Positions 2,424-55,742 of a stretch of 64,000 nt of DNA are shown here, in pieces. The DNA comes from a virus (taxonomy: Duplodnaviria > Caudoviricetes), in the IMG/VR virus record IMGVR_UViG_3300037010_001838; one strand, 5' to 3'. Below the pieces are notes generated by a model. That model saw only the letters and a list, made by a program, of their open reading frames with translations, ran no database searches and had not been told where the DNA came from. The position numbers and the translations under genes are program-made. Position 1 is the first letter of the stretch, and every line of letters starts with the position of its first letter.

Positions 2424-3515
2424 ATGATTGACGAAGCCCCCGTTGAAAATTCGAATGAATTTAACATTGATGAATTTTATGGTGAAAAACAAATTCGCTG
2501 GTATCAAGTTGCTGCTCGCAATGCAGTGGCAGATGCGGTTGAACGTGGCGTTCAACGTATTCTTGTAGTTCTTCCTACTGGTGCTGGTAAAACAATTACT
2601 ATCGCTGCATCTTTGTCTTTCCCTCGCATACGAAAAGCGTTGGGAGTAGAAGGTGATCGTCCTCTTCGTGTGTTATTCGTCGCCCACAAACATCGCCTGC
2701 TTACTCAAGCAGAACAAACTTTCACGAAAGAAAGTAACGTAGAATTGATCCTTCAATCTATGTTTACGGATATTCCGGAAGATGTTCTAAAAAACGGTTG
2801 GGACGTCGCAGTTCTTGACGAAAGCCATCACGAATCTTGCATGTCTATGCAGTACCAACTTGAAAAGGTTGGTGATAAAGTGATTATTGGTTTGACGGCT
2901 ACACCTGACCGAGCTGATGGTTGTTTGATCAAATTTGAAGAGATCATTGAACCAATCTCTCGTCAACAGGCAGTTGAAGAAGGTTTTCTTGCTCCAACCA
3001 AAATCTATTCATTTGTTGACGCTCCTGAAAAGAATAAAACTCGTGTGGTCAAAGACATTCTCGATGGCTACATCCATCTGATGGGTCAGACAATGGTTTT
3101 CATGAGAACGAAGAAAGAAGCCAGTGAGATTCATCATTATATCCAATCTCTCGGTTACAAGTCTGTTTTCGTTGACAGCCAACCCAGTCATGAGCTTGAC
3201 CAGATCCTCGACGACTTTAGTGCAGGTCAATACAACTTCGTGGTCAACTGTTCACGTATAAGTGAGGGGGTTGATGTTAAAAAATGTGAGAGTGTCCTAC
3301 TAGGACGAACGTTTGCAAGTTACCCCCTTCTAAATCAGGTCATTGGAAGAGCAGCAAGACCTGACAGTGATTGCAGGGTATGGGAAATTATCAATCCGCT
3401 ATCGGGTTATAACTTGGAAACAACAGCGATTGTTGGAGAACCTGAAATCCATGTTCTGTCTTACCGCAAAAACGGCAAGTGGTTTGAAGAGCAGTTCGAT
3501 TACACTACTGTGTAA
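2424..3515 (+). CDS. superfamily 2 DNA helicase (DExH, UvsW/Res-like)
   Basis: Walker A LPTGAGKT, DESHH, LTATPDR, motif VI QVIGRAAR; ATG 2424 follows GGAGAG SD. Confidence 0.9.
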   Translation: MIDEAPVENSNEFNIDEFYGEKQIRWYQVAARNAVADAVERGVQRILVVLPTGAGKTITIAASLSFPRIRKALGVEGDRPLRVLFVAHKHRLLTQAEQTFTKESNVELILQSMFTDIPEDVLKNGWDVAVLDESHHESCMSMQYQLEKVGDKVIIGLTATPDRADGCLIKFEEIIEPISRQQAVEEGFLAPTKIYSFVDAPEKNKTRVVKDILDGYIHLMGQTMVFMRTKKEASEIHHYIQSLGYKSVFVDSQPSHELDQILDDFSAGQYNFVVNCSRISEGVDVKKCESVLLGRTFASYPLLNQVIGRAARPDSDCRVWEIINPLSGYNLETTAIVGEPEIHVLSYRKNGKWFEEQFDYTTV

Positions 3516-7298: not shown

Positions 7299-7492
7299 AA
7301 GACCAACAAATGACTCAACAGATTTTTGACAATGGTGATTCAACACCTGAATTCACCAATAATGAAATTCAACAACTGATGTTTACAGCAGAAGCTTTGA
7401 CAACTTTCTATGATGATCTCATCGTAAGGTCCACCAAAGATTTCAACTTCTTTATTGCACCTCCGACAAACTTCTCATATGGGGTCAACTGA
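7295..7492 (+). CDS. hypothetical protein
   Basis: ATGA overlap with upstream gene. Confidence 0.55.
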   Translation: MKDQQMTQQIFDNGDSTPEFTNNEIQQLMFTAEALTTFYDDLIVRSTKDFNFFIAPPTNFSYGVN

Positions 7493-7746
7493 TGTACAAA
7501 GTAAGCATCGTCGATAAGAAGACCAAATTAATATACGAAGGGTCAGAGAAGACCTTTGATTCCTTCGATGACGCATCAACTGATGCTTTGACAAGATTTG
7601 CACTAAATTTCGGATACGATGTTAATGCGACGTTTGAGTTCATAGACTCTTATACTTCCCCACTCGAAATCTCCAGCGTTGAACTTTTCCCCAAATTCGG
7701 GGATGATGGGGTATTCCTTTTTAAAGATACAGAAGTGATACACTAA
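7492..7746 (+). CDS. hypothetical protein
   Basis: TGATG translational coupling. Confidence 0.55.
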   Translation: MYKVSIVDKKTKLIYEGSEKTFDSFDDASTDALTRFALNFGYDVNATFEFIDSYTSPLEISSVELFPKFGDDGVFLFKDTEVIH

Positions 7747-7747
7747 A

Positions 7748-7957
7748 ATGCGAATGACCAATTACGCTCATATGGAAAAACCGAATCCATACAACGTTCG
7801 GATGTATATTCCATCAATGAACGCCGAACTCAATTACACCCAATACTGCAAACTTGTTAGAACAATGGGTCTCATTAAAGATCCAGCGAATCTATTCTTC
7901 ATCGGGGGATGGCCTGTTTATAATCTTCCTGATGGTACTATTTTTCAATGTGAATAA
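7748..7957 (+). CDS. hypothetical protein
   Basis: Tightly packed ORF in operon. Confidence 0.5.
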   Translation: MRMTNYAHMEKPNPYNVRMYIPSMNAELNYTQYCKLVRTMGLIKDPANLFFIGGWPVYNLPDGTIFQCE

Positions 7958-7971
7958 GGAAAGGAAGTAAA

Positions 7972-8178
7972 ATGAACAATTCTTTTGTAAATCTCAATAT
8001 GTATCCCCTTTACAAGGTAACGATGATTAAGATGGGGGCATGCACAGAAGGACCAACTCAAATTACTGAATACATTCGAGCTTCAGGTATCGGTAACGTA
8101 GCTGAAGAAGCTAAACGCCGCCACCCCGGATATTTACCTTCAGGTCGATACGACAAGATTGACGACGGTATTCGTTAA
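7972..8178 (+). CDS. hypothetical protein
   Basis: AAGGAA SD; followed by terminator. Confidence 0.55.
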   Translation: MNNSFVNLNMYPLYKVTMIKMGACTEGPTQITEYIRASGIGNVAEEAKRRHPGYLPSGRYDKIDDGIR

Positions 8179-8199
8179 CAATCCAAACATTCAACACAC

Positions 8200-8230
8200 A
8201 AAGCCTGGAACTCCCAGGCTTTTTCTTTTT
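8200..8230 (+). terminator. rho-independent terminator
   Basis: AAGCCTGG-AACTC-CCAGGCTT followed by T-tract. Confidence 0.85.
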
Positions 8231-8301
8231 CTTTTTCTGTCGTATGTTAGGGTCAAATGTGGTATAGTGTTCACACTTACTGCTCAAACGGATAAAATCA
8301 A

Positions 8302-8586
8302 ATGAATTCAATTAACCTTATCGAGATTGCTGAAGAGATATCATATGATGAAATGGCAGAATTACTTGCGCGGTTTATCCTGAATGAAGAGCAGTCCTTT
8401 GCGAAGCAGATGATCGGTTCTTCAGACGATACTACAAAAATGATATATCGGAAGGTGTTATCAAATTCAAGCCAATTGGGTCTCGAAGCAGAGGATTTAC
8501 TGCGTGATGTATATTCAAAGAATTTTCTTGAAACTGTAAAAATAACGATTGGATCTGTTGCCGAAGAATACGTAAGGGATGTATAG
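8302..8586 (+). CDS. hypothetical protein
   Basis: 94-aa ORF after promoter-like region. Confidence 0.6.
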   Translation: MNSINLIEIAEEISYDEMAELLARFILNEEQSFAKQMIGSSDDTTKMIYRKVLSNSSQLGLEAEDLLRDVYSKNFLETVKITIGSVAEEYVRDV

Positions 8587-9249: not shown

Positions 9250-9545
9250 TGTCTTTTATAATCTACAACACAACAAATTTTTCTCTTTATCGGCCCAATT
9301 ATTCTGCAAAGACGTATTCAACAGAACGTAGCGCAAAGGGGGCTCTAACGAAGCTCATCAAACAACAAGAAGAGAATCAATGGTTCATTCCAGAACATTG
9401 GGCCGTAACCACATATGACCACTTCCGATCTATTGAACCAATGGTCGAAGTTAAAAGTTTAATGACCGGGGCACCTGTTCAAATTAGAGCATCAGATGTT
9501 GATTCATGTGTTGACCCATCCACGGAACGATTTTGGAGTATGTAA
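9249..9545 (+). CDS. hypothetical protein
   Basis: TAATG coupling, 98 aa. Confidence 0.65.
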   Translation: MSFIIYNTTNFSLYRPNYSAKTYSTERSAKGALTKLIKQQEENQWFIPEHWAVTTYDHFRSIEPMVEVKSLMTGAPVQIRASDVDSCVDPSTERFWSM

Positions 9546-9549
9546 TTTT

Positions 9550-9595
9550 ACTCTACACCGGTCTCAAACTAAACAAACTCCACTATTCATGCGGA
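9550..9595 (+). repeat. 46-bp perfect direct repeat, copy 1
   Basis: ACTCTACACCGGTCTCAAACTAAACAAACTCCACTATTCATGCGGA identical at 9918-9963. Confidence 0.95.
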
Positions 9596-9649
9596 TCATT
9601 AAAAACGAAAATCGGTCGACTTTCTTCAGTAATTGGGTATAATAGTCTT

Positions 9650-9907
9650 TAGTGAGTTGAGTGGTGGGTATTCACTGATAGGTAAAGGGTTCGAGTACTC
9701 GCTTCGTTAATATGCCAAGTGGTGTAATAGTAAGCACACCTTTCGGCCGCGTTGCTCGTGGTGTTGAGAGGCCGGGAGACGGTTCCAGAATTTCGGACGG
9801 CGCTATGAAAATAGAGGTGTAAGTGGGCGGACGTCCATGAGAGAGAAGCCGTATGACAGAGAATAGAGCTTGGGGCAGGTGTCCACCTTCCCAGGCTCTT
9901 TCTTTTT
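9650..9907 (+). ncRNA. candidate small RNA with own promoter and terminator
   Basis: TCGACT-16-TATAAT (9616-9643); GC-richer non-coding body; terminator AGAGCTTGGG/CCCAGGCTCT plus T-tract (9865-9907). Confidence 0.5.
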
Positions 9908-22327: not shown

Positions 22328-22540
22328 TTAATTTGAAACTGTTAGAAGAGCGGGGCACCACTCAGGTGCTCTATCTCTTTCATACCAACAATTTGAAATT
22401 ATTTTATTGTTAACTCCACAGACTACTTGTATTCCTCGGTCATATTCTTCTGGCGTATTACAGTAGTAATCAGTTATTAATTGAGTACATCCTTTACAGT
22501 GATATGTAATTGTCATTGATGGTCCAAAATTGTTTTCCAT
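22328..22540 (-). CDS. hypothetical Cys-rich protein
   Basis: Coupled to guaC stop (TAATG). Confidence 0.55.
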   Translation of the reverse strand: MENNFGPSMTITYHCKGCTQLITDYYCNTPEEYDRGIQVVCGVNNKIISNCWYERDRAPEWCPALLTVSN

Positions 22541-24798
22541 TATCTCACCTTTGTTGTTATGTCTTCATACACCCGATTGTGAGTGTTATTCACTCTAATA
22601 AACGTTGCACGTTTTGAAAGTTCCTTTAGTGTTTTACTTCCTGTATATGTACACGTACTCCGAACCCCACCTAGAATATGGTTAATTGTATCTTTAACTG
22701 GTCCTCGATATGGAAGTTCGATTGTTCGTCCTTCACTCGAGCGATATTCAGCCAAACCCCCACTGTGAGCTTCCATTGCTGTAGATGAACTCATCCCGTA
22801 GAATTGGACAAACTTACGCTCTACTTCCAAACACTCAAGAGAAGAACCATCAATATCTTTTATAACTTCGTTAGTTTTATACCACTTCGAACTTACTTCA
22901 CCTCCACCTTCGTCGTGTCCAGCGAACATTCCACCACTCATTACAAAATCAGCGCCACCTGCAAATGCTTTTGCAAAGTCTCCAGGAGTATTACATCCCC
23001 CATCGGAACACAACCTTCCGCCTAATCCATGAACAGCATCAGCACATTCTATAATTGCACTCAATTGGGGAAAACCAATTCCAGACACTAACCTTGTGGT
23101 ACAAACTGAATTGTGAACAATCATGTTGTTTGCAATGAAACTGTGGGTTGGGTGATCAATTTCCAAATCGTAGACGGGAACCTCACACTCTGTTGGGTTT
23201 TCAATTTCAAGTATTTTTATAACCTGATAATGTGAAAGATGTCTTTTTTTGTGAGAGGTCGCCAGAAAACTTCGATATCCATCTTTTCGGGGGTGTTGCA
23301 TAGGATATGAAGACCGTTTCCCGTTGTTTGACATATTTGGGAAACTCCCAAATATATTAAACGTAATCCAGCTGAATAGTTCCATGAGTTGTTGTGACGT
23401 GTTGTTAAAATTAACCTGGCCTTCTTTTGTAATGTGGCCGTCACTATCAACTAATCCATCATACAATCCCCGCAAATATTCTGTGTTGGTGCACATGAAT
23501 TGGTCTGGAAGATGTTTTTCATGGAACTTTCCAAACTGTTGGAAAAATTCTTCCCACTGTTTACTATACAAGGTGATCGTGGTCAACGTTTTCCGTTTAT
23601 TAGAACATACTGGGATTTTACCCGTAACCATCTCAACAGCAGACATTAATTTAACTACATGATGTTGATCTCTTGAGTTTATATACCACTCAACACCTTC
23701 AGAAAAACTTGAAAATCCCCTGCTGTTGGTTCCTTTTGTTTTTCTTGAAGTACCATCTCCAAGAAAAAAACCAAACACATAACCAGTGTTGTAATCAGAT
23801 TTAACAATAGTGTTATAATTATCCAAATGCTCTTCTCGTATAAAATAACTTGAAATATCGATATGAAAACTATCTGGTGTTTCCCAATTAATATTGATGG
23901 GAAGTAAAGCTACATCTTGTCGTATTTCACTCACCGGTTTCCATTTTATTTTTTCCTCTCCCAAACGAGTAGGAACCTCCAGCGCCTTTTTATACCCTTT
24001 GCTTTGTAGTGTTGTAATACTAATAGAATTTAGATCACCTACGTAACAATGATGGTCAGGAGTTAGTCTCAACGGAATGTTGAAGTGATCATGTTTTATC
24101 TGTGTTGTTTTCTTATATCCTGTGGTATAAGCGGATAACACAGTTGCTGGTTCTCCAGTACTCGTAATTATACGATCCCCAGGTTGAACATCTTTGATAT
24201 TTTTATAAACACCACTGGACATTAAAATTCGAGCATCACCCGTTAAACACCCACTGCCTACTCCAACCTTGATGATATCTGCACCAGATAATACTAATTG
24301 TTCTGCCATTTCAGGTGTAACAACGTTACCAACAAGAAGAGTTGTGTTTGGATATTTGTCTCGTAATTTAGTTACAGTAGATACAAAAGTTTCTGTATAC
24401 CCATTAGCAACGTCAACACACACATTTAAAGGAGGTCTGCCAAACATTTCGATGAAGTGTTCAAGCTTATCGAGGTCACTTTGAGACGTTCCAACTGAAT
24501 AAAAAATATATTGTTCAAATGAGGGATTGTTTTTATAAAAATCTACAAGTTGAACTACTGGATAATGTTTATGTAATGCTACCATCATTTTAAATTCAGC
24601 AAATCGTTCCGCCATTTCAAAAGTTCCAACTCCATCCATATTTGACGCTATAATTGGAATACCAGTCCATTGTTGGTGAGAGTATTTGAATGTGAACGAC
24701 CTTTCAAGAGACACGTCTTTGCGTGAAGTTAGTGATGACCTTTTTGGAATAAGTAGCACATCACCAAAATCCAATTTAACATCCTCTACTATTCTCAT
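22540..24798 (-). CDS. guaC: GMP reductase containing an intein
   Basis: KLDFGDVLLIPKRS, IIASNMDGVG, VDVANGY, KVGVGSG|SVCTTR, FAGGADFVMSGGMFAG, FYGMSS. Confidence 0.92.
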   Translation of the reverse strand: MRIVEDVKLDFGDVLLIPKRSSLTSRKDVSLERSFTFKYSHQQWTGIPIIASNMDGVGTFEMAERFAEFKMMVALHKHYPVVQLVDFYKNNPSFEQYIFYSVGTSQSDLDKLEHFIEMFGRPPLNVCVDVANGYTETFVSTVTKLRDKYPNTTLLVGNVVTPEMAEQLVLSGADIIKVGVGSGCLTGDARILMSSGVYKNIKDVQPGDRIITSTGEPATVLSAYTTGYKKTTQIKHDHFNIPLRLTPDHHCYVGDLNSISITTLQSKGYKKALEVPTRLGEEKIKWKPVSEIRQDVALLPININWETPDSFHIDISSYFIREEHLDNYNTIVKSDYNTGYVFGFFLGDGTSRKTKGTNSRGFSSFSEGVEWYINSRDQHHVVKLMSAVEMVTGKIPVCSNKRKTLTTITLYSKQWEEFFQQFGKFHEKHLPDQFMCTNTEYLRGLYDGLVDSDGHITKEGQVNFNNTSQQLMELFSWITFNIFGSFPNMSNNGKRSSYPMQHPRKDGYRSFLATSHKKRHLSHYQVIKILEIENPTECEVPVYDLEIDHPTHSFIANNMIVHNSVCTTRLVSGIGFPQLSAIIECADAVHGLGGRLCSDGGCNTPGDFAKAFAGGADFVMSGGMFAGHDEGGGEVSSKWYKTNEVIKDIDGSSLECLEVERKFVQFYGMSSSTAMEAHSGGLAEYRSSEGRTIELPYRGPVKDTINHILGGVRSTCTYTGSKTLKELSKRATFIRVNNTHNRVYEDITTKVR
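23110..24249 (-). mobile_element. 380-aa intein with LAGLIDADG homing endonuclease
   Basis: Begins CLTGD, ends IVHN followed by Ser; internal FGFFLGDG and LYDGLVDSDG motifs. Confidence 0.92.
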
Positions 24799-27354: not shown

Positions 27355-27450
27355 ATGAACACAAACGGATTAGGTTATTGTCTATCACTCGGGTCTTTAT
27401 CCATATTGGATAAGAGCCAGGTCGCCGTTTGGGGAATTACCAAGATGTAA
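27355..27450 (+). CDS. leader (attenuator) peptide 1, MNTNGLGYCLSLGSLSILDKSQVAVWGITKM
   Basis: AAAGGA SD; 31 codons between promoter and terminator; codons 5-18 are only Gly/Leu/Tyr/Cys/Ser/Ile. Confidence 0.8.
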   Translation: MNTNGLGYCLSLGSLSILDKSQVAVWGITKM

Positions 27451-27536: not shown

Positions 27537-27655
27537 GGGCATGCGGCGAAGTTGGAGAGTCGCGGCGGACTGACTAGAGAGCATTGGTTTTCCAGTGTTC
27601 TCGACTAAATCCGTTCCCTCGTGGTGAGTAGGTTCGATTCCTACCATGCCCACCA
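27537..27655 (+). tRNA. tRNA-Tyr(GTA) with 33-nt insertion in the anticodon
   Basis: GGGCATG/CATGCCC-A-CCA; GCGGA-CTG|insert 27573-27605|TAAA-TCCGT; long variable arm; GGTTCGATTCC. Confidence 0.8.
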
Positions 27656-27661
27656 ATTTAT

Positions 27662-27747
27662 GCGCTAGTGCCGGAGTAGACGAACGGAACTGCCTGCAAA
27701 GCAGATGGTGAAAGCCCACGTGGGTGCAAATCCTACCTAGCGTTCCA
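27662..27747 (+). tRNA. tRNA-Cys(GCA), long variable arm
   Basis: CTGC-CTGCAAA-GCAG arm; U73; CCA. Confidence 0.85.
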
Positions 27748-28061: not shown

Positions 28062-28144
28062 GCCCTGGTGACAAATGCAAATTGGTACAGCTACTGCGCT
28101 AAGAACGCAGGTTTTTACGGGTTCGACTCCCGTCTGGGGCACCA
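28062..28144 (+). tRNA. tRNA-Leu(AAG)
   Basis: CTGCG-CTAAGAA-CGCAG; GCCCTGG/CTGGGGC-A-CCA. Confidence 0.85.
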
Positions 28145-28339: not shown

Positions 28340-28441
28340 GGCGCAGATAGGTGTAGTTGAAACAGCACTGTGGGAGATTCCTCGAGGCGTAGCTCCCATT
28401 CCTCTGGATAAGTGGGTTAAATTCCCATCCTGTGGCCACCA
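28340..28441 (+). tRNA. tRNA-like gene with enlarged 16-nt anticodon loop, isotype unclear
   Basis: GGGAG/CTCCC stem around ATTCCTCGAGGCGTAG; GTGGG-TTAAATT-CCCAT; ACCA. Confidence 0.5.
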
Positions 28442-28509
28442 AACACGTTTGTCTCATTAATCTATATGACAAGGTGAGCGAGGGTTTGAATCCCTCTTTG
28501 GATACTAGT

Positions 28510-28696: not shown

Positions 28697-28780
28697 CCGC
28701 AGGTGGCTTAGGTAAATTGGTACAGCCCCTATCTTCAAACGGTAGTGCTTTTGTGGGTTCGAATCCCTCCCTGCGGACCA
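28697..28780 (+). tRNA. tRNA-Leu(CAA), short variable arm
   Basis: CTATC-TTCAAAC-GGTAG; paralogue of 28510; CCA. Confidence 0.75.
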
Positions 28781-29741: not shown

Positions 29742-29834
29742 GGTCCTGTAGTTTAAAGAAAACAAGATGATTTATAAACATCCAAGGTCCTAGATGAGGG
29801 CAAGTAGTGGGAGCGTTACCCACCAGGACTACCA
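29742..29834 (+). tRNA. atypical tRNA-Ile(TAT)
   Basis: GGTCCTG/CAGGACT-A-CCA; GATG-A-TTTATAA-A-CATC; long variable region; T-loop AGCGTTA. Confidence 0.55.
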
Positions 29835-29837
29835 AAT

Positions 29838-29960
29838 TGTTGTGTGAGGGGGATTGGTATACCCCGGCGGTGGAATCATAGTGGGGAGCTCTGTGAAAAC
29901 AGACTAAAATAGTAACCCTTCCAGTAGCTTGTGTAGGTTCGAGTCCTACCACAACAACCA
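29838..29960 (+). tRNA. tRNA-like gene with structured insertion in anticodon arm
   Basis: TGTTGTG/CACAACA-A-CCA; D-arm; GTAGG-TTCGAGT-CCTAC; about 43 nt between TGGAA/TTCCA. Confidence 0.55.
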
Positions 29961-35364: not shown

Positions 35365-35436
35365 GCTCAATTGGCTTAATGGTAAAGCAGGTGCTTCTAA
35401 AACACTTGACCGTCGGTTCGATTCCGACATTGGGCA
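35365..35436 (+). tRNA. amber suppressor tRNA (anticodon CTA)
   Basis: GCTCAAT/ATTGGGC-A; canonical D and T arms; GGTGC-TTCTAAA-ACACT puts CTA at 35397-35399. Confidence 0.75.
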
Positions 35437-35443
35437 CCGAGAA

Positions 35444-36179: not shown

Positions 36180-37056
36180 CAGAACGTTTCATCAGAAACA
36201 ATTTAAAAGATAAAGAATTACGCGCTTGTGCAAAGTAACCAACAGCGATGTTGTGAAAGCGGTAGGTCCTACAACTACCGCGCCCTGTAAGGGGTACAAA
36301 CAAGCAAGCCTGACCTACTCCGAAAGGAGCTGATTATCGCCAACGGTAGTCATATGAGGGAAGTTAGGGGTGTGGAAAGAACGAATGTTTACAAGCCTGC
36401 TCTGCAGGGAACTTGGGCATTTGGAGAGTAACGGGTTGTGCCGACCTCACGCCTACACAAACTAGCCATCTCAAAAGGTAAAGGGTAGTACAGTGGTCCG
36501 AACCCGCAAGTAAGGGCTGTTGTGCAAGTTGAGGGGGTTTTGGTACCTGTAATAGGGTGTCACGATTCCTGAAAACTGGTTGAGTAGTCGGCAGATGAAA
36601 AACATGAGGAGTGTGGTATTTTTATACTCAAAAGGTATGAAATCCACTGGAAACGCACTTCTTGGTAGGTTTAACAATGTTAGGGTTAACAGCCCATATA
36701 AATTTGGATTATATTACATAAAACGCAAAGACGTTTCCAGTGTAAAGTGAAAATGGCTTAATCCTTCAGCCGCAAGGTAATGAAGGCGTCCAAAACTCGC
36801 AAGGTCGAGGATGTTGAAAGAAAGTCGCACGCAGAGAGTTAGCGCTCTTGTACAGCTCGCAAGGTTGGCGGTAGACAGATAATCGAGTAGCTTTACATGT
36901 TGGTGGAAAAGCAACCACTTAAAAAATGCAGTCATGTTGATAGACATAGTTGTGCGAAAGCTGATTATGTGGATAAGAGAAGAACTCTAGCTGTAGCAGG
37001 TGATGAGATAATGTCTCGAAGGTATCAATAGTATAGGTTTAATCTCAACCTTATAC
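36180..37056 (+). ncRNA. large structured RNA, GOLLD-like
   Basis: About 880 nt non-coding, many GNRA-capped hairpins (CTCC-GAAA-GGAG, GCC-GCAA-GGT, CTC-GCAA, TGC-GAAA-GC); terminal hairpin with TAATCTC loop; next to phage tRNAs. Confidence 0.65.
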
Positions 37057-38129: not shown

Positions 38130-39632
38130 GTGAGCAAAGAATTTGTGGATGCCCTTTCTATTACAACCAATGTAGCGCACACGGAAAATGGTGCTGTTGC
38201 ATTTGATACAACCAAATCAGCTATGTTGGATTTGTTTGCACAAGGGGGTGCACTCCGCAATCGTGCTGATGATGAAATTCTTCGTTTGTTTTCAAAAGCT
38301 TATGCAGAAAATGCATTGTTTGCCACTCGTGCTATGTTCTATTTCAGGGACGCTCGTGGTGGTCAAGGTGAACGCGATACATTTAGAAAGCAATTAAAGT
38401 GGTTGATTAACGTTAACCCTGACGCTGTCCGTAAAAACATTAAACTTATTCCATACTTTGGACGTTGGGATGATTTGTATGTGTTATTTGATACAGAACT
38501 TGAAACAGATGCAATTACACTAATCTTTACACAGATTGCCGAAGACACGGCATCTGAACATCCCTCGTTGCTTGCAAAATGGTTGAAAAGTGAAAACGCT
38601 TCTTCAAAAGAAACGAAACGACTTGCAACAAAAACTCGTATAGGTCTTAAATTAAGTTCCAAAGCATATCGCTTGATGTTGAGCACTCTTCGTAAGAAAA
38701 TTAACATCGTTGAACGGTTGGTGTCTGCCAATCAGTGGGATAGTATTGAATACAGTGCCGTTCCTTCTCAAGCTAACTTGTTATATGGGAAAGCTTTCTT
38801 CACGCATGACGCTGAACGCCGTAAGAAATTCTTGGATTCTTTAAAGACTGGCGAAAAGAAAATCAATGCGAGTGTTCTTTTTCCATATGAAATCGTCCAT
38901 AAAGCACTTACGGTGGGCAGGAACACACCACAACACGAACGCCAACTCATAGATGCGTTGTGGGACGCTCTTCCAAACTATATTGGAGATAAACAAGAAA
39001 ATGCTCTTGCTGTAGTTGATGTGTCTGGTTCTATGGCTGGTCTTCCATTGGAAGTTGCTATTTCGGTTGGAATGTATTTGGCTGAACGTAACACTTGTGA
39101 AGCTTATCATAACAAGTTCATTACTTTTAGCTCTACACCTCAACTACTTAAAATTCAGGGAGCTGACCTTGTTGAAAAAATAGCTAATATGAATAGTTCT
39201 GCATGGGAAATGAATACAGATATTCAAGCTGTGTTCCGTTTGATTCTTACTGTTGCCAAACAAAACAAGTTAGCACAATCTGAATTACCACAGAAGTTGT
39301 ATATCATTTCTGATATGGAATTTGATGCCGCTATAAGCAACGCTAGATATTCTTATAAGAATCAATGTCGGGGTGTGGTTGACGAAAAATTTTTCCAAAC
39401 AATTTCTAAAGAATTTAGTGAGTGTGGATATACAATGCCCAATTTGGTGTTTTGGAATGTTGATGCTCGGAACCAACAGTTTCCAATGAGTATGGATGAG
39501 CGTGGTTTTCAAATGGTTAGTGGATGTAGTCCGTCTATCTTTAAGCACACAATAGGTGGAGAATTTATGTCTGCTTATGATTTGATGCTTGATGTTATTA
39601 ACAGTGAACGTTATCAACTCGTTACAATTTAA
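38130..39632 (+). CDS. DUF2828 / TROVE-like vWA domain protein (Ro60-related)
   Basis: TENGA, RDARGGQGER, GRWDDL, AKWLKSE, MIDAS VVDVSGSM, FITFS, ISDMEFD, LVFWNV. Confidence 0.85.
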   Translation: MSKEFVDALSITTNVAHTENGAVAFDTTKSAMLDLFAQGGALRNRADDEILRLFSKAYAENALFATRAMFYFRDARGGQGERDTFRKQLKWLINVNPDAVRKNIKLIPYFGRWDDLYVLFDTELETDAITLIFTQIAEDTASEHPSLLAKWLKSENASSKETKRLATKTRIGLKLSSKAYRLMLSTLRKKINIVERLVSANQWDSIEYSAVPSQANLLYGKAFFTHDAERRKKFLDSLKTGEKKINASVLFPYEIVHKALTVGRNTPQHERQLIDALWDALPNYIGDKQENALAVVDVSGSMAGLPLEVAISVGMYLAERNTCEAYHNKFITFSSTPQLLKIQGADLVEKIANMNSSAWEMNTDIQAVFRLILTVAKQNKLAQSELPQKLYIISDMEFDAAISNARYSYKNQCRGVVDEKFFQTISKEFSECGYTMPNLVFWNVDARNQQFPMSMDERGFQMVSGCSPSIFKHTIGGEFMSAYDLMLDVINSERYQLVTI

Positions 39633-50127: not shown

Positions 50128-50226
50128 ATGATTTTTACGACTTTCTTTACAGCGTTTACAACCCCTGAGGCATGGCATGCCCCAGAGATGGCTGTGTGCG
50201 CTCTTGAGGAAGGTTGGAAAAACTAA
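50128..50226 (+). CDS. leader (attenuator) peptide 2, MIFTTFFTAFTTPEAWHAPEMAVCALEEGWKN
   Basis: GGAG SD; 32 codons; codons 3-22 are only Phe/Thr/Ala/Pro/Glu/Trp/His/Met. Confidence 0.8.
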   Translation: MIFTTFFTAFTTPEAWHAPEMAVCALEEGWKN

Positions 50227-50605: not shown

Positions 50606-50653
50606 GGGTGATTCGGGTGGCTAAGGCGGGTTCGATTCCCGTATGCTCCACCA
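50606..50653 (+). tRNA. truncated tRNA (T-arm plus CCA only)
   Basis: GCGGG-TTCGATT-CCCGT-ATGCTCC-ACCA in 48 nt. Confidence 0.45.
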
Positions 50654-50685
50654 AAAGAACTTTTAAATGTTGAAGTTCTTTTAAT

Positions 50686-50744
50686 GGGGGCATGATGGTT
50701 GCTGCCGACGGGCAAGACGAGTTCGATTCTCGTATCGTCCACCA
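50686..50744 (+). tRNA. truncated tRNA lacking D-arm
   Basis: ACGAG-TTCGATT-CTCGT-ATCGTCC-ACCA in 59 nt. Confidence 0.45.
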
Positions 50745-50793: not shown

Positions 50794-50880
50794 GCACGGG
50801 AAGTCAGATGGATTGGACACCACCCTTTCAAGGTGGCAGGTGAAAACCGTTTGCGGGTTCGAGTCCCGTTCCGTGCTCCA
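50794..50880 (+). tRNA. tRNA-Glu(TTC) with long variable arm
   Basis: CCACC-CTTTCAA-GGTGG; 16-nt variable region; CCA. Confidence 0.85.
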
Positions 50881-53980: not shown

Positions 53981-54349
53981 ATGAAGATTGAAGAGTTAAT
54001 GGAAAGTTTGGTTGTTTGGAAACCAATTGACGGTTGGTCAAACTATGAAGTTTCTAACACAGGACAAGTTCGTTCGACTAAAACAAATAAAGTTTTGGCC
54101 CAAGAAGAACACTACGGTCACGACAAAAAATCTCCGTATATGAGAGTTCACTTGTCACAAAATGGAGTCAAAAAACACCTTAGAGTGAACAGGTTAGTTG
54201 CATATGCTTTTATTGGACCACCACCAGATCGTAATATGCACGTAGACCATAAAGATAATAACACCAGAAATAACAAATCAACAAATCTTCAGTGGCTTAC
54301 TCCTACTGAAAATTTAAAAAAACGTCTAGCACATAAGTCAGAACATTAA
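53981..54349 (+). CDS. NUMOD4-HNH homing endonuclease
   Basis: WKPIDGWSNYEVSNTGQVRS; HVDHKDNNTRNNKSTNLQWLT..EN. Confidence 0.9.
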   Translation: MKIEELMESLVVWKPIDGWSNYEVSNTGQVRSTKTNKVLAQEEHYGHDKKSPYMRVHLSQNGVKKHLRVNRLVAYAFIGPPPDRNMHVDHKDNNTRNNKSTNLQWLTPTENLKKRLAHKSEH

Positions 54350-54375
54350 TTACAAAAACTGTTTCTATTTCAAAA

Positions 54376-54450
54376 GCCACATAAGCAGAACTGGTGATGC
54401 GCCTGTTTCGTAATCAGGAAATACGTTGGGTTCAAGTCCCCGATGTGGCA
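54376..54450 (+). tRNA. tRNA-Thr(CGT)
   Basis: CCTG-T-TTCGTAA-T-CAGG; GCCACAT/ATGTGGC. Confidence 0.85.
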
Positions 54451-54459
54451 CCTACACAA

Positions 54460-54760
54460 AAATAACTAAACCTTCTATATCTATAAATTTATCGATAATA
54501 GCGTCTTCAATTAAAGATTTGTTTCCAGAAAAGGTGTCTCATCAAATAGTTGGTCTTGAACTTATTGGTGATGAATTAATCGCAACGCTTGAAACTTTGG
54601 ATACACCAGAAGGAATTGAAGTCAAAACACTGATTGAGAATGTCCCCACTGAATGTCGACCAACCGGAGTTGGGTATATCGTTGATGACCCAACAGGACA
54701 ATCATCTGGAATAATTAAAGAAGAATTTAGGATTTACGAATGTTGCGATAGTTCCAAAAG
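54460..54760 (+). pseudogene. prohead protease (T4 gp21-like) fragment
   Basis: KVSHQIVGLELIGDELIATLETLDTPEG..VK.LI...RPTGVG resembles gp21 core; no clear start. Confidence 0.45.
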
Positions 54761-55129: not shown

Positions 55130-55366
55130 ATGAAAATTCGTGATTTCTTAAATGAAACTGTTTACAATTTAAATAAAACTGATGATATAGATAAAGGAAA
55201 TATTGATCCAGAGAAATATTATGTGTTTATCAGAACTGTTGACCCAACACTTGTCGGACCTTTTAACACATCAAGTGAAGCACATAAATACATGAATGGA
55301 GAGTATGTTACTGATCGTGTAGAAAAGATCGTTGTAAGTGGAACTGAAGCAAAAAGATTATTTTAA
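55130..55366 (+). CDS. hypothetical protein with MKIRDFLNE N-terminus
   Basis: GGAG SD, ATAAATA upstream. Confidence 0.65.
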   Translation: MKIRDFLNETVYNLNKTDDIDKGNIDPEKYYVFIRTVDPTLVGPFNTSSEAHKYMNGEYVTDRVEKIVVSGTEAKRLF

Positions 55367-55395
55367 ACGAATCCAACTTGTTTGTTGATATTAGT

Positions 55396-55510
55396 GTTGT
55401 TGTATATCAGTTGGTTAGAGATAACGTCTGCTCGAGGGTGTAGCCCCCGGTAAAGGACCGCAACGCTGCAGATAAAACGTTCGCCGATGGTTCGAGTCCA
55501 TCCAACAACA
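55396..55510 (+). tRNA. tRNA with about 42-nt insertion in the anticodon loop (CTG|TAAA gives GTA; isotype uncertain)
   Basis: GTTGTTG/CAACAAC-A; AACGT/ACGTT stem; GATGG-TTCGAGT-CCATC; insert 55431-55472. Confidence 0.7.
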
Positions 55511-55519
55511 CTAGATTTT

Positions 55520-55593
55520 GGGGCTGTAGTATAAAGGGATTACGGAAGCTTTGCAAGCTTTTTATCGGGGTTCGATTCCCCGCAGTTCCACCA
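55520..55593 (+). tRNA. tRNA-Ala(TGC)
   Basis: GGGGCTG/CAGTTCC-A-CCA with G3-U70; TTTGCAA loop. Confidence 0.9.
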
Positions 55594-55742
55594 AATTTTA
55601 CAATACAGGAAAGTAACGGAACCGAGAGCCTGTATCTCTCCGACGTTCCAGCCTTTTAATTCAGTTGTCTTCAAATTTAACATCTGGTATAATCTCTTAT
55701 AATAAATACTTTACAAATATAACTATAATGGAGAACAATATT

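What the first reader, a model, noticed from the sequence alone, without database searches (positions are those of the whole stretch)
55396..55510. Second anticodon-loop intron with the same CTG|TAAA junction
A complete tRNA body (7-bp acceptor, D-arm, T-arm) carries a 42-nt structured insert (55431-55472; hairpins GGGT/GCCC and CGGT/ACCG, closing CTGC/GCAG). Removing it restores a 7-nt loop CTGTAAA, the same exon junction as the Tyr tRNA at 27537, although the insert sequences are unrelated. Other registers (GCA, GCT, or GAT with an 8-nt loop) cannot be excluded, and the body is class I, which is atypical for bacterial Tyr. Two independent inserts at one position would point to a dedicated splicing activity.
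Basis: partly seen in the sequence, partly recalled or inferred. Interest (0 to 1): 0.7.

Follow-up and report, generated by a model that had tools for sequence, protein, structure and literature searches.

The report
Interrupted tRNA-like gene in jumbo phage
A giant phage carries an otherwise perfect tRNA gene whose anticodon loop is filled with about 42 extra, unstructured bases; no way of cutting them out gives a tRNA that fits this phage's own rules, so it is more likely a broken or non-decoding tRNA look-alike than a second spliced tyrosine tRNA.

Summary
The tRNA body at 55396-55510 is real: a 7-bp acceptor stem, D arm, perfect T arm and a 5-bp anticodon stem. That stem encloses 49 nt instead of 7.

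- **The insert is not structured.** Shuffled inserts fold as well in 51% of trials. The tRNA-Tyr hairpin insert at 27537 beats 1000 of 1000 shuffles.
- **The "same CTG|TAAA junction" is a choice of register.** Four 42-nt deletions give a normal loop, with anticodons ATA, GTA, GCA and GCT, and ARAGORN prefers a fifth reading.

Only GTA fits discriminator A73. But the body is class I, and every tRNA-Tyr in 55 related loci and two complete relatives is class II, with one per complete genome. The codon-matched leader peptide of this tRNA cluster has no Tyr codon.

I found no homologue, no insert-less allele and no RNA data.

My odds are 0.65 that it is not spliced (relic 0.38, tRNA-like RNA 0.27) and 0.35 that it is spliced (GUA 0.25).

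The kind itself, short "enigmatic" introns in large-phage tRNAs, is published (Devoto 2019). This scan has noted it many times on other DNA: 86 notes in at least 74 genomes. This copy is the weakest example.

The parts
55396..55402 (+). acceptor stem, 5' strand (GTTGTTG)
   Evidence: Pairs 7 of 7 with 55503-55509.
55403..55423 (+). U8 A9 plus the D arm
   Evidence: Two readings: TATC / AGTTGGTTA / GAGA with an A11-G24 mismatch and T26, or a perfect TATC/GATA stem with an 11-nt loop. G18 G19, A14 and A21 are present.
55423..55427 (+). anticodon stem, 5' strand (AACGT)
   Evidence: Pairs 5 of 5 with 55477-55481 at the canonical distance from the D and T arms.
55428..55430 (+). CTG: C32 U33 and a possible G34
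   Evidence: Read from the sequence. It also pairs, with C55431, to GCAG 55468-71.
55431..55472 (+).
   Evidence: Unique in the window, in G001 and in IMG/VR. Not more structured than shuffled sequence. Holds two 6-bp palindromes, CTCGAG and CTGCAG.
55473..55476 (+). TAAA: possible U35 A36 A37 A38
   Evidence: Read from the sequence. Part of a 5-nt A-rich bulge (ATAAA or TAAAA) between two helices.
55477..55481 (+). anticodon stem, 3' strand (ACGTT)
55482..55485 (+). 4-nt variable loop (CGCC), so a class I body
55486..55502 (+). T arm GATGG-TTCGAGT-CCATC
   Evidence: It is the only part matched by Rfam's tRNA model (11.7 bits).
55503..55510 (+). acceptor stem 3' strand (CAACAAC) plus discriminator A73, followed by CTAG and no encoded CCA
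55520..55593 (+). canonical tRNA-Ala(TGC), 9 nt downstream and in the same operon
27537..27655 (+). comparator: class II tRNA-Tyr(GTA) with a 33-nt insert, an 11-bp hairpin set in a 7x7 internal loop
50128..50226 (+). leader peptide of tRNA cluster 2 (MIFTTFFTAFTTPEAWHAPEMA...) followed by a terminator hairpin; it has no Tyr codon

Best explanation
This is a tRNA gene disrupted in its anticodon loop by a lineage-specific insertion of about 41-42 nt. It is not turned into a working decoder.

How it would behave:
- It sits in a tRNA operon, between a 78-aa orphan ORF and tRNA-Ala. No promoter-like site lies just upstream of it on its own strand.
- Its acceptor/T-arm half is intact. Host RNase P, RNase Z and the CCA-adding enzyme should therefore cut it out and finish it. 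This step is inferred.
- The product would be a roughly 115-nt tRNA-shaped RNA with a floppy 49-nt region in place of the 7-nt anticodon loop.

I think the most likely single reading is a young relic of the rapid gain, loss and rearrangement seen in these phages' tRNA arrays (0.38). The same RNA kept for a job of its own, such as a tRNA look-alike or decoy, is the near neighbour of that reading (0.27, listed as a rival). 'Not spliced to a decoder' therefore totals about 0.65.

Shown: the anatomy, the lack of structure in the insert, the lack of any coherent register, and the lack of relatives. Inferred: transcription, end-processing and the absence of splicing.
For: 1. No excision register gives a tRNA that passes the checks every other tRNA of this phage passes.
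   - GTA needs a class II body. All Tyr in relatives are 85-92 nt, and each complete genome has one.
   - GCA needs U73. GCT and CGA need G73 and a long variable arm.
   - GAT needs an 8-nt loop.
2. The insert is no more structured than shuffled sequence (51% of shuffles fold as well). The Tyr hairpin is 5 sd better than its shuffles.
3. The element exists only in this phage lineage.
   - The exons have no match in 55 related loci.
   - Exact scans of IMG/VR find only G001.
   - The metagenome scan returned 14 non-tRNA chance hits.
   - No insert-less allele was found.
4. The leader peptide of its tRNA cluster uses only F, T, A, P, E, W, H and M in codons 3-22. Those are exactly the isotypes of the canonical tRNAs of that cluster. 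The cluster 1 leader contains Y, and cluster 1 holds tRNA-Tyr. A ninth, unlisted isotype would be the only exception among 14.
5. tRNA arrays in this clade turn over fast and hold debris.
   - Array content differs between all relatives.
   - CCA-ended tRNA pieces lie at 50606-50744 and odd bodies at 28062, 28340 and 29838.
   - A 5' acceptor segment is duplicated upstream of tRNA-Asp in G001.
6. There is no encoded CCA, unlike 21 of 27 tRNAs here.
7. No tRNA splicing endonuclease and no RtcB were found in the 179-kb sister contig.
Against: - The body is flawless: acceptor 7 of 7, T arm 5 of 5, anticodon stem 5 of 5, and U8, A14, G18, G19, T54 and A58 all present. A long-dead gene would have decayed.
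- The insert lies exactly inside the loop, leaving C32 U33 on one side and A37 A38 on the other. That is also true of the hairpin inserts at 34|35 in tRNA-Tyr 27537 and in Lys and Glu tRNAs of relatives.
- In strain variants, all six nearby differences fall outside this gene and tRNA-Ala. By my hand calculation, p is about 0.005 for both tRNAs together, 0.07 for this gene and 0.43 for the insert alone.
- The phage and both complete relatives encode an Rnl5-like RNA ligase.
- No source for the inserted DNA was found.
- G001 is only about 52% of the genome, so absent enzymes may lie elsewhere.
Confidence: 0.38

Rival explanations
1. It is a protein-spliced mini-intron. An unknown endonuclease, positioned by the mature tRNA body, cuts after G34 and before U35. 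A phage RNA ligase joins the halves. The result is a 73-nt class I tRNA with anticodon GUA. Lacking the long variable arm, it could escape defence nucleases that cut the variable arm of tRNA-Tyr.
For: - The 34|35 register matches the position of the hairpin inserts in tRNA-Tyr 27537 and in Lys(ttt) of L039 and L055 and Glu(ctc) of L045.
- The product is a canonical cloverleaf with U33 and A37, which ARAGORN calls Tyr(gta).
- GTA is the only register consistent with A73.
- The body is intact and invariant in strain variants.
- An Rnl5-like RNA ligase lies next to a tRNA cluster in G001 and occurs in 2 of 2 complete relatives.
- Septu and retron-Eco7 cut the variable arm of tRNA-Tyr, and phage tRNA-Tyr variants counter them (PMC13096335).
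Against: - The insert is unstructured and unlike the hairpin class.
- The register is one of at least four.
- Class I tRNA-Tyr is unknown in bacteria (textbook knowledge) and absent from all relatives examined.
- The cluster's leader peptide has no Tyr codon.
- No endonuclease candidate, RtcB, EndA or TyrRS was found in G001.
- No homologue shows conservation.
Confidence: 0.25
2. It is a functional but unspliced tRNA look-alike. The tRNA body gives stability and processing, and the 49-nt central region is the working part. It could act as a decoy or sponge for a tRNA-targeting host nuclease or a tRNA-binding protein, or as a small RNA carried on a tRNA scaffold.
For: - The same phage has other tRNA bodies with an intact acceptor, T arm and CCA whose centres cannot be resolved into any anticodon loop (28340-28441, 29838-29960).
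- The candidate shares short motifs with them: CTCGAGG..GTAGC.CCC with 28340, and TCTGY/RCAGA followed by (C)TAAAA with 29838, including one compensatory pair.
- The body is perfectly kept.
- The window also encodes a GOLLD RNA and a DUF2828/DUF7788 protein.
Against: - The motif sharing is not significant after correction: p = 0.01 for the best pair and 0.09 for any of 7 targets.
- The central region has no stable fold.
- It has no complementarity to anything in the phage.
- There is no conservation outside the lineage.
- No partner protein is identified. The upstream 78-aa ORF is an orphan.
Confidence: 0.27
3. Another register is the true one. The candidates are (a) ARAGORN's reading, with stem GTCTG/CAGAT, loop CTCGAGG, anticodon CGA and a 31-nt intron that can be placed at the canonical 37/38 site; (b) a relaxed bulge-helix-bulge reading giving loop CTGCTAA, Ser(GCU); and (c) removal of 41 nt giving the 8-nt loop CTGATAAA, Ile(GAU).
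For: (a)
- It is ARAGORN's own top call.
- The helix GTCTGC/GCAGAT is the RNAfold MFE helix.

(b)
- The 4-bp helix CTGC/GCAG lies between a 3'-strand bulge and a 5'-strand bulge, which is the topology of an archaeal BHB.
- GCT is the one box for which G001 has no tRNA.

(c)
- The body is class I with A73.
- The nearest tRNA among 220 from relatives is an Ile(gat), though the score is weak.
Against: (a)
- It needs 2 nt between the D and anticodon stems and an unpaired 12-nt variable region.
- It has A73, whereas this phage's Ser tRNAs have G73 and long arms.

(b)
- The bulges are 5 and 4 nt rather than 3, and there is no outer helix.
- Neither EndA nor RtcB was found.
- A Ser body is missing.
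- The Tyr insert has no such motif.

(c)
- 8-nt anticodon loops are not normal decoders.
Confidence: 0.1

Closest known systems
'Enigmatic' short introns in tRNA genes of Lak megaphages and other jumbo phages (Devoto et al. 2019, PMC6784885; also noted in PMC13037316, 2026)
   Same: An insert of tens of nucleotides in the anticodon loop of a large phage's tRNA gene. It is far too small to self-splice, and no splicing route is known. tRNA-Tyr(GTA) is among the interrupted genes reported.
   Different: Lak introns are reported as conserved, often identical, across cohorts, and some have insert-less alleles that fix the boundaries. This insert has no relatives, no insert-less allele, no significant fold and no unambiguous register.
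Hairpin insert of the same phage's tRNA-Tyr (27537-27655), and of Lys/Glu tRNAs in related IMG/VR contigs (L039, L055, L045)
   Same: An anticodon-loop position compatible with 34|35. The flanks can be read as C-U-N34 | N35-N36-A-A. The phage clade is the same.
   Different: Those inserts are single stable hairpins of 8-15 bp. For the Tyr insert, the one tested, 0 of 1000 shuffles fold as well, and it sits in a body that matches its anticodon (class II Tyr). The candidate's insert is branched or unstructured, and its body does not match any anticodon it could yield.
Archaeal bulge-helix-bulge tRNA introns cut by EndA and joined by RtcB
   Same: Short size, and protein-dependent removal would be needed. 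A 4-bp helix (CTGC/GCAG) lies between two unpaired stretches on opposite strands.
   Different: - The bulges are 5 and 4 nt rather than 3+3, and there is no outer helix.
- The register implied gives C37, or a Ser anticodon on a non-Ser body.
- EndA and RtcB are not detected in G001.
- The phage has bacterial hallmarks: encoded CCA, a class II Tyr, a peptide-deformylase-like gene and a group I intron in tRNA-Leu.
Group I intron in tRNA-Leu(UAA) at U34|A35 (cyanobacterial type; one is present in the sister contig G001 at 9390-9709)
   Same: Insertion site inside the anticodon, and the same phage genome.
   Different: It is 235 nt with a catalytic core, against 42 nt with none. The two share no sequence similarity, Rfam finds no ribozyme, and the 5' exon would end in G, not U.
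Anticodon-loop break-and-repair in T4 (host PrrC nuclease; phage Pnkp and Rnl1), from textbook knowledge
   Same: A phage RNA ligase acting on tRNA anticodon loops is the only precedent for rejoining tRNA halves in phage-infected bacteria. This phage encodes an RNA ligase.
   Different: That pathway repairs a single nick and removes nothing. The ligase here is of the OB-fold plus RNA_ligase (Rnl5-like) type, not Rnl1. I did not search for a Pnkp-type kinase/phosphatase.

Membership tests
Canonical tRNA (Rfam RF00005) | 7-bp acceptor stem, D arm with G18 G19, T arm with a TPsiC loop | tested here: met
Canonical tRNA (Rfam RF00005) | 7-nt anticodon loop; the whole gene reaches the family's gathering score | tested here: not met
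   There are 49 nt between the anticodon-stem strands. Rfam matches only the T arm, at 11.7 bits against a threshold of 29. Default ARAGORN does not call it.
Phage hairpin mini-introns (as in tRNA-Tyr 27537; Lak 'enigmatic introns') | Insert in the anticodon loop whose removal restores a 7-nt loop with U33 and a purine at 37 | tested here: met
   Met for four registers (ATA, GTA, GCA, GCT), so it does not discriminate between them.
Phage hairpin mini-introns (as in tRNA-Tyr 27537; Lak 'enigmatic introns') | Insert forms a stable hairpin or otherwise significant structure | tested here: not met
   51% of shuffled inserts fold as well; z is -0.3 to -0.6. For the Tyr insert, 0 of 1000 shuffles do.
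Phage hairpin mini-introns (as in tRNA-Tyr 27537; Lak 'enigmatic introns') | Conserved in related phages and/or an insert-less allele defines the boundaries | tested here: not met
   It occurs only in near-identical strains, and no insert-less form exists in them, in IMG/VR or in the metagenome scan.
Phage hairpin mini-introns (as in tRNA-Tyr 27537; Lak 'enigmatic introns') | A spliced product exists | not testable with these tools
   No RNA run holds the locus.
Bacterial-type tRNA-Tyr | Anticodon GUA and discriminator A73 | tested here: inconclusive
   A73 is present. GUA arises in only one of several registers.
Bacterial-type tRNA-Tyr | Long variable arm (class II) | tested here: not met
   The variable loop is 4 nt. 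All Tyr(gta) genes in relatives are 85-92 nt.
Archaeal BHB intron | Two 3-nt bulges separated by a 4-bp helix; EndA and RtcB available | tested here: not met
   The 4-bp helix is present, but the bulges are 5 and 4 nt and there is no outer helix (sequence). Neither PF01974 nor PF01139 was found in G001, which is about 52% of the genome.
Group I intron or small self-cleaving ribozyme | Catalytic core recognisable by a covariance model | tested here: not met
   No Rfam family reaches E of 10 or better apart from a tRNA T arm and a chance plastid UTR hit. It shows no similarity to the phage's own group I intron.

The most novel reading that the evidence does not exclude
The transcript is spliced at G34|U35 by a body-measuring phage or host endonuclease and sealed by the phage's Rnl5-like ligase. 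This would yield an 'arm-less' class I tRNA-Tyr. Such a tRNA would have no precedent in bacteria or phages. It would be intrinsically resistant to defence nucleases (Septu or retron-Eco7 PtuAB) that cut the long variable arm of tRNA-Tyr. It would also show that the splicing activity does not need a hairpin in the intron.
Probability: 0.1. Interest if true: 0.8.

Novelty: new member of a known kind. Interest (0 to 1): 0.33.

Why it matters
If it were spliced, this locus would show two things. The unknown activity that handles short inserts in large-phage tRNAs would tolerate an unstructured intron. A phage could also field a tyrosine tRNA without the arm that defence nucleases attack.

As the evidence stands, its main value is as a caution. 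A perfect tRNA body lets gene finders call a 'tRNA with intron' for half of all possible deletions, so censuses of phage tRNA introns will include disrupted genes and tRNA look-alikes. The cleaner hairpin-interrupted genes, such as tRNA-Tyr at 27537, are the ones to take to the bench.

Tried and rejected
**Searches for relatives or alleles (all blank)**
- blastn of the region against 50,697 phage records found only neighbouring tRNAs.
- Exon halves against 59 fetched loci gave nothing.
- Exact IMG/VR scans with the T arm plus acceptor, and with the insert core, found only the sister contig G001.
- A junction-anchored pattern in JGI metagenomes gave 14 hits, all non-tRNA, about the number expected by chance.
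- A degenerate pattern for an insert-less allele in IMG/VR gave 0 hits.
- A scan with the 29838 motif gave 0 hits.

**RNA evidence**
- No RNA holder is listed for this DNA.
- DNA contigs of four runs were laid on the region.

**Enzymes, searched in G001, which is about 52% of a genome**
- No match for RtcB (PF01139), tRNA_int_endo (PF01974) or tRNA-synt_1b.
- The RNA_lig_T4_1 search is uninformative because its control genomes did not ring.
- Pfam on 35 window and G001 ORFs gave no obvious tRNA endonuclease. It found only a non-specific Endonuclease_NS, a CYTH-like protein and an HNH.

**Origin of the insert**
- No similarity to the phage's group I intron.
- No similarity to any other place in the phage or its relatives.

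**Motifs shared with the odd tRNA-like bodies at 28340 and 29838**
- I followed these up, but they are not significant after correction.

**Ideas rejected**
- Archaeal host: the tRNA features, the deformylase-like gene and the encoded CCA are bacterial.
- Hammerhead-like ribozyme: the core motifs are absent.
- tRNA-shaped intron cut by RNase P/Z, a lead from earlier notes: there is no minihelix, T loop or CCA in the insert.

**Upstream ORF**
- The upstream 78-aa ORF has no homologues.

Full report
**Context**

The window is part of a large T4-like phage. A sister contig, IMG/VR UViG_3300035181_001013 (here G001), is 178.8 kb and about 52% complete, and it is 98-100% identical over the regions compared. 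The DNA occurs in microbial-mat and sediment metagenomes.

The window holds 25 canonical tRNAs, a GOLLD RNA and an amber-suppressor tRNA. G001 holds 45 tRNA genes covering all 20 amino acids, including a group I intron in tRNA-Leu(UAA).

**The observation**

Reading 55396-55510 confirms a tRNA body.
- The acceptor stem GTTGTTG/CAACAAC is 7 of 7 paired.
- U8, A9 and a D arm with G18 G19 are present.
- The T arm is GATGG-TTCGAGT-CCATC, and the discriminator is A.
- A perfect 5-bp stem AACGT/ACGTT stands exactly where an anticodon stem should, but it encloses 49 nt instead of 7.

Deleting 55431-55472 gives a 73-nt class I cloverleaf with loop CTGTAAA. It has a 4-nt variable loop and one A11-G24 mismatch in the D stem, and ARAGORN calls it Tyr(gta).

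The gene is missed by default ARAGORN and by Rfam, which matches the T arm only at 11.7 bits. It lacks an encoded CCA, unlike 21 of 27 tRNAs here.

**What does not hold: structure**

The insert is not demonstrably structured.
- With the anticodon stem enforced, the real insert gives -13.8. Shuffled inserts give -14.2 +/- 2.9, and 51% fold as well.
- Whole-gene and arm z-scores are -0.6 and -0.3.
- The 33-nt insert of tRNA-Tyr at 27537 is an 11-bp hairpin in a 7x7 internal loop. It scores -23.0 against -10.4 +/- 2.5, with 0 of 1000 shuffles as good.

The two inserts are therefore different kinds of object.

**What does not hold: the junction**

The sequence does not dictate the junction.
- Because the body is so good, ARAGORN calls a tRNA for 288 of 567 deletion variants.
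- Deletions of 42 nt yield anticodons ATA, GTA, GCA or GCT, all with U33 and A37.
- With introns allowed, ARAGORN itself chooses another stem (GTCTG/CAGAT), the loop CTCGAGG and a 31-nt intron, calling it 'Ser(cga)'. That helix is also the RNAfold MFE helix.
- A relaxed bulge-helix-bulge reading around the 4-bp helix CTGC/GCAG would give GCT.

**Testing the registers against the phage's own rules**

In this phage Tyr has A73, Cys has U73, and all three Ser tRNAs have G73 and long arms. With A73, the candidate fits only GTA.

A GUA tRNA with a 4-nt variable loop has no counterpart, however. Every Tyr(gta) in the 55 related loci is 85-92 nt. The two complete relatives, G005 (385 kb) and G006 (368 kb), each have a single uninterrupted 86-nt Tyr. 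No register therefore yields a tRNA whose body agrees with its anticodon.

**An independent check from the operon's control region**

I re-read it.
- The ORF at 50128-50226 reads MIFTTFFTAFTTPEAWHAPEMA..., followed by a terminator hairpin.
- Codons 3-22 use only F, T, A, P, E, W, H and M. Those are exactly the isotypes of the canonical tRNAs between 50339 and 55593, including Trp and Met, which occur only in the distal block next to the candidate.
- The cluster 1 leader (27355-27450...GLGYCLSLGSLSILDKS...) contains Tyr, and cluster 1 holds tRNA-Tyr 27537.

A functional Tyr, Ser or Cys decoder at 55396 would be the one unlisted isotype.

**Relatives**

A neighbouring 358-aa protein recovered 55 related IMG/VR loci at 39-54% identity. 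Their tRNA arrays differ widely.
- None has a tRNA resembling the candidate.
- Exact scans of IMG/VR with the T arm plus acceptor, the insert core and an insert-less junction found only G001 or nothing.
- The single metagenome scan gave 14 chance hits in protein-coding DNA.
- In strain-level variants from four runs, no contig lacks the insert. All six differences of strain X4 within 55300-55620 lie outside the candidate and tRNA-Ala.
- By my hand calculation this is significant for the two tRNAs together (about 0.005), marginal for the candidate (0.07) and uninformative for the insert (0.43).

**The wider class**

Short inserts compatible with position 34|35 do occur in this clade.
- They are Lys(ttt) in L039 and L055, Glu(ctc) in L045 and Tyr here. 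All are hairpins.
- Devoto et al. (2019) reported 'enigmatic' introns in Lak megaphage tRNAs, including Tyr(GTA).
- A 2026 survey again noted intronic sequences in jumbo-phage tRNAs.
- I found no paper giving a mechanism.
- This scan holds 86 notes in at least 74 genomes on such inserts, several of them in this genome.

**Enzymes**

G001 encodes an RNA ligase with a PHA02142 OB-fold domain followed by an RNA_ligase domain. I call this architecture Rnl5-like from my own knowledge. It lies 0.8 kb upstream of a tRNA cluster. The family is present in both complete relatives. RtcB, the archaeal splicing endonuclease and TyrRS were not found in G001, but half of the genome is unseen.

**Other leads followed**

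The insert shares CTCGAGG..GTAGC.CCC with the odd tRNA-like body at 28340. It shares a TCTGY/RCAGA helix followed by (C)TAAAA with the body at 29838. A permutation test gives p = 0.01 for the best pair and 0.09 after allowing for seven targets, so I treat this as unproven. The insert shows no similarity to the phage's group I intron or to any other sequence.

**Verdict**

My odds:

| Reading | Odds |
|---|---|
| Not spliced: recent relic of array turnover | 0.38 |
| Not spliced: RNA retained as a tRNA look-alike | 0.27 |
| Spliced to GUA | 0.25 |
| Spliced in another register | 0.10 |

- The 'not spliced to a decoder' readings total 0.65. The reasons are that no register is coherent, the insert is unstructured, the element is lineage-specific, and the leader does not list its isotype.
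- The spliced readings total 0.35. The reasons are the intact body, the position inside the loop, and the presence in the same phage of better examples of the class.

The most novel reading still open is an arm-less tRNA-Tyr that would evade nucleases targeting the variable arm (Septu and retron-Eco7; PMC13096335). I put it at about 0.1.

Sequencing the mature RNA would settle the matter.

Noticed in passing
window 36606-37051 and 38130-39632: A GOLLD RNA (198.8 bits) lies about 1 kb upstream of a 500-aa protein with DUF2828 and DUF7788 domains, inside the tRNA-rich region.
   Followed up: no
window 35365-35438: A tRNA with anticodon CTA, an amber suppressor that ARAGORN labels 'Pyl'. Relatives have one or two as well. 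This raises the question of TAG recoding in part of the genome.
   Followed up: no
window 27662-27747, 28697-28780, 50794-50880; L008:6126-6233, L011:7134-7240: Many normally class I isotypes here carry long variable regions: Cys 86 nt, Lys 84 nt, Glu 87 nt. In relatives, Asn, Thr, Ile, Trp and Gly reach 83-96 nt. The 'Thr with intron' calls in L008 and L011 read more simply as a GTC anticodon arm plus a 37-nt variable-arm hairpin.
   Followed up: partly
window 28062-28144, 28340-28444, 29742-29836, 29838-29960, 50606-50744: Further tRNA-like bodies or pieces. Most end in CCA, and their centres cannot be read as an anticodon arm. 50606-50744 looks like two tRNA 3' halves separated by a terminator-like hairpin.
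   Followed up: partly
window 50128-50226 and 27355-27450: Short leader ORFs whose codons list the isotypes of the tRNA genes downstream. The first is followed by a terminator hairpin. This was already reported by this scan, and I re-read it here.
   Followed up: partly
window 22540-24798 (- strand): An IMPDH/GMP-reductase-like gene interrupted by an intein, with Hint and LAGLIDADG hits.
   Followed up: no
window 54341-54626 and 54845: Strain polymorphism. One run's contig lacks 284 nt that include tRNA-Thr(cgt), and it has a 13-nt insertion after 54845. This shows that the tRNA array is in flux at strain level.
   Followed up: no
L062:1021-2028 (G001 7382-8389): A 335-aa RNA ligase with a PHA02142 OB-fold domain followed by an RNA_ligase domain. 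It lies 0.8 kb upstream of tRNA-Met and the group-I-interrupted tRNA-Leu(UAA).
   Followed up: partly
L045:1515-1643, 1913-2041, 3337-3456: Three long tRNA genes of one related phage. Two share the insert motif TTGACCGGCAACGGTACG, and all three end their inserts in CGTTAWC. This suggests a family of related inserts within one genome.
   Followed up: no
window 53981-54349: A free-standing HNH/NUMOD4 homing-endonuclease-like gene lies directly upstream of the distal tRNA block.
   Followed up: no
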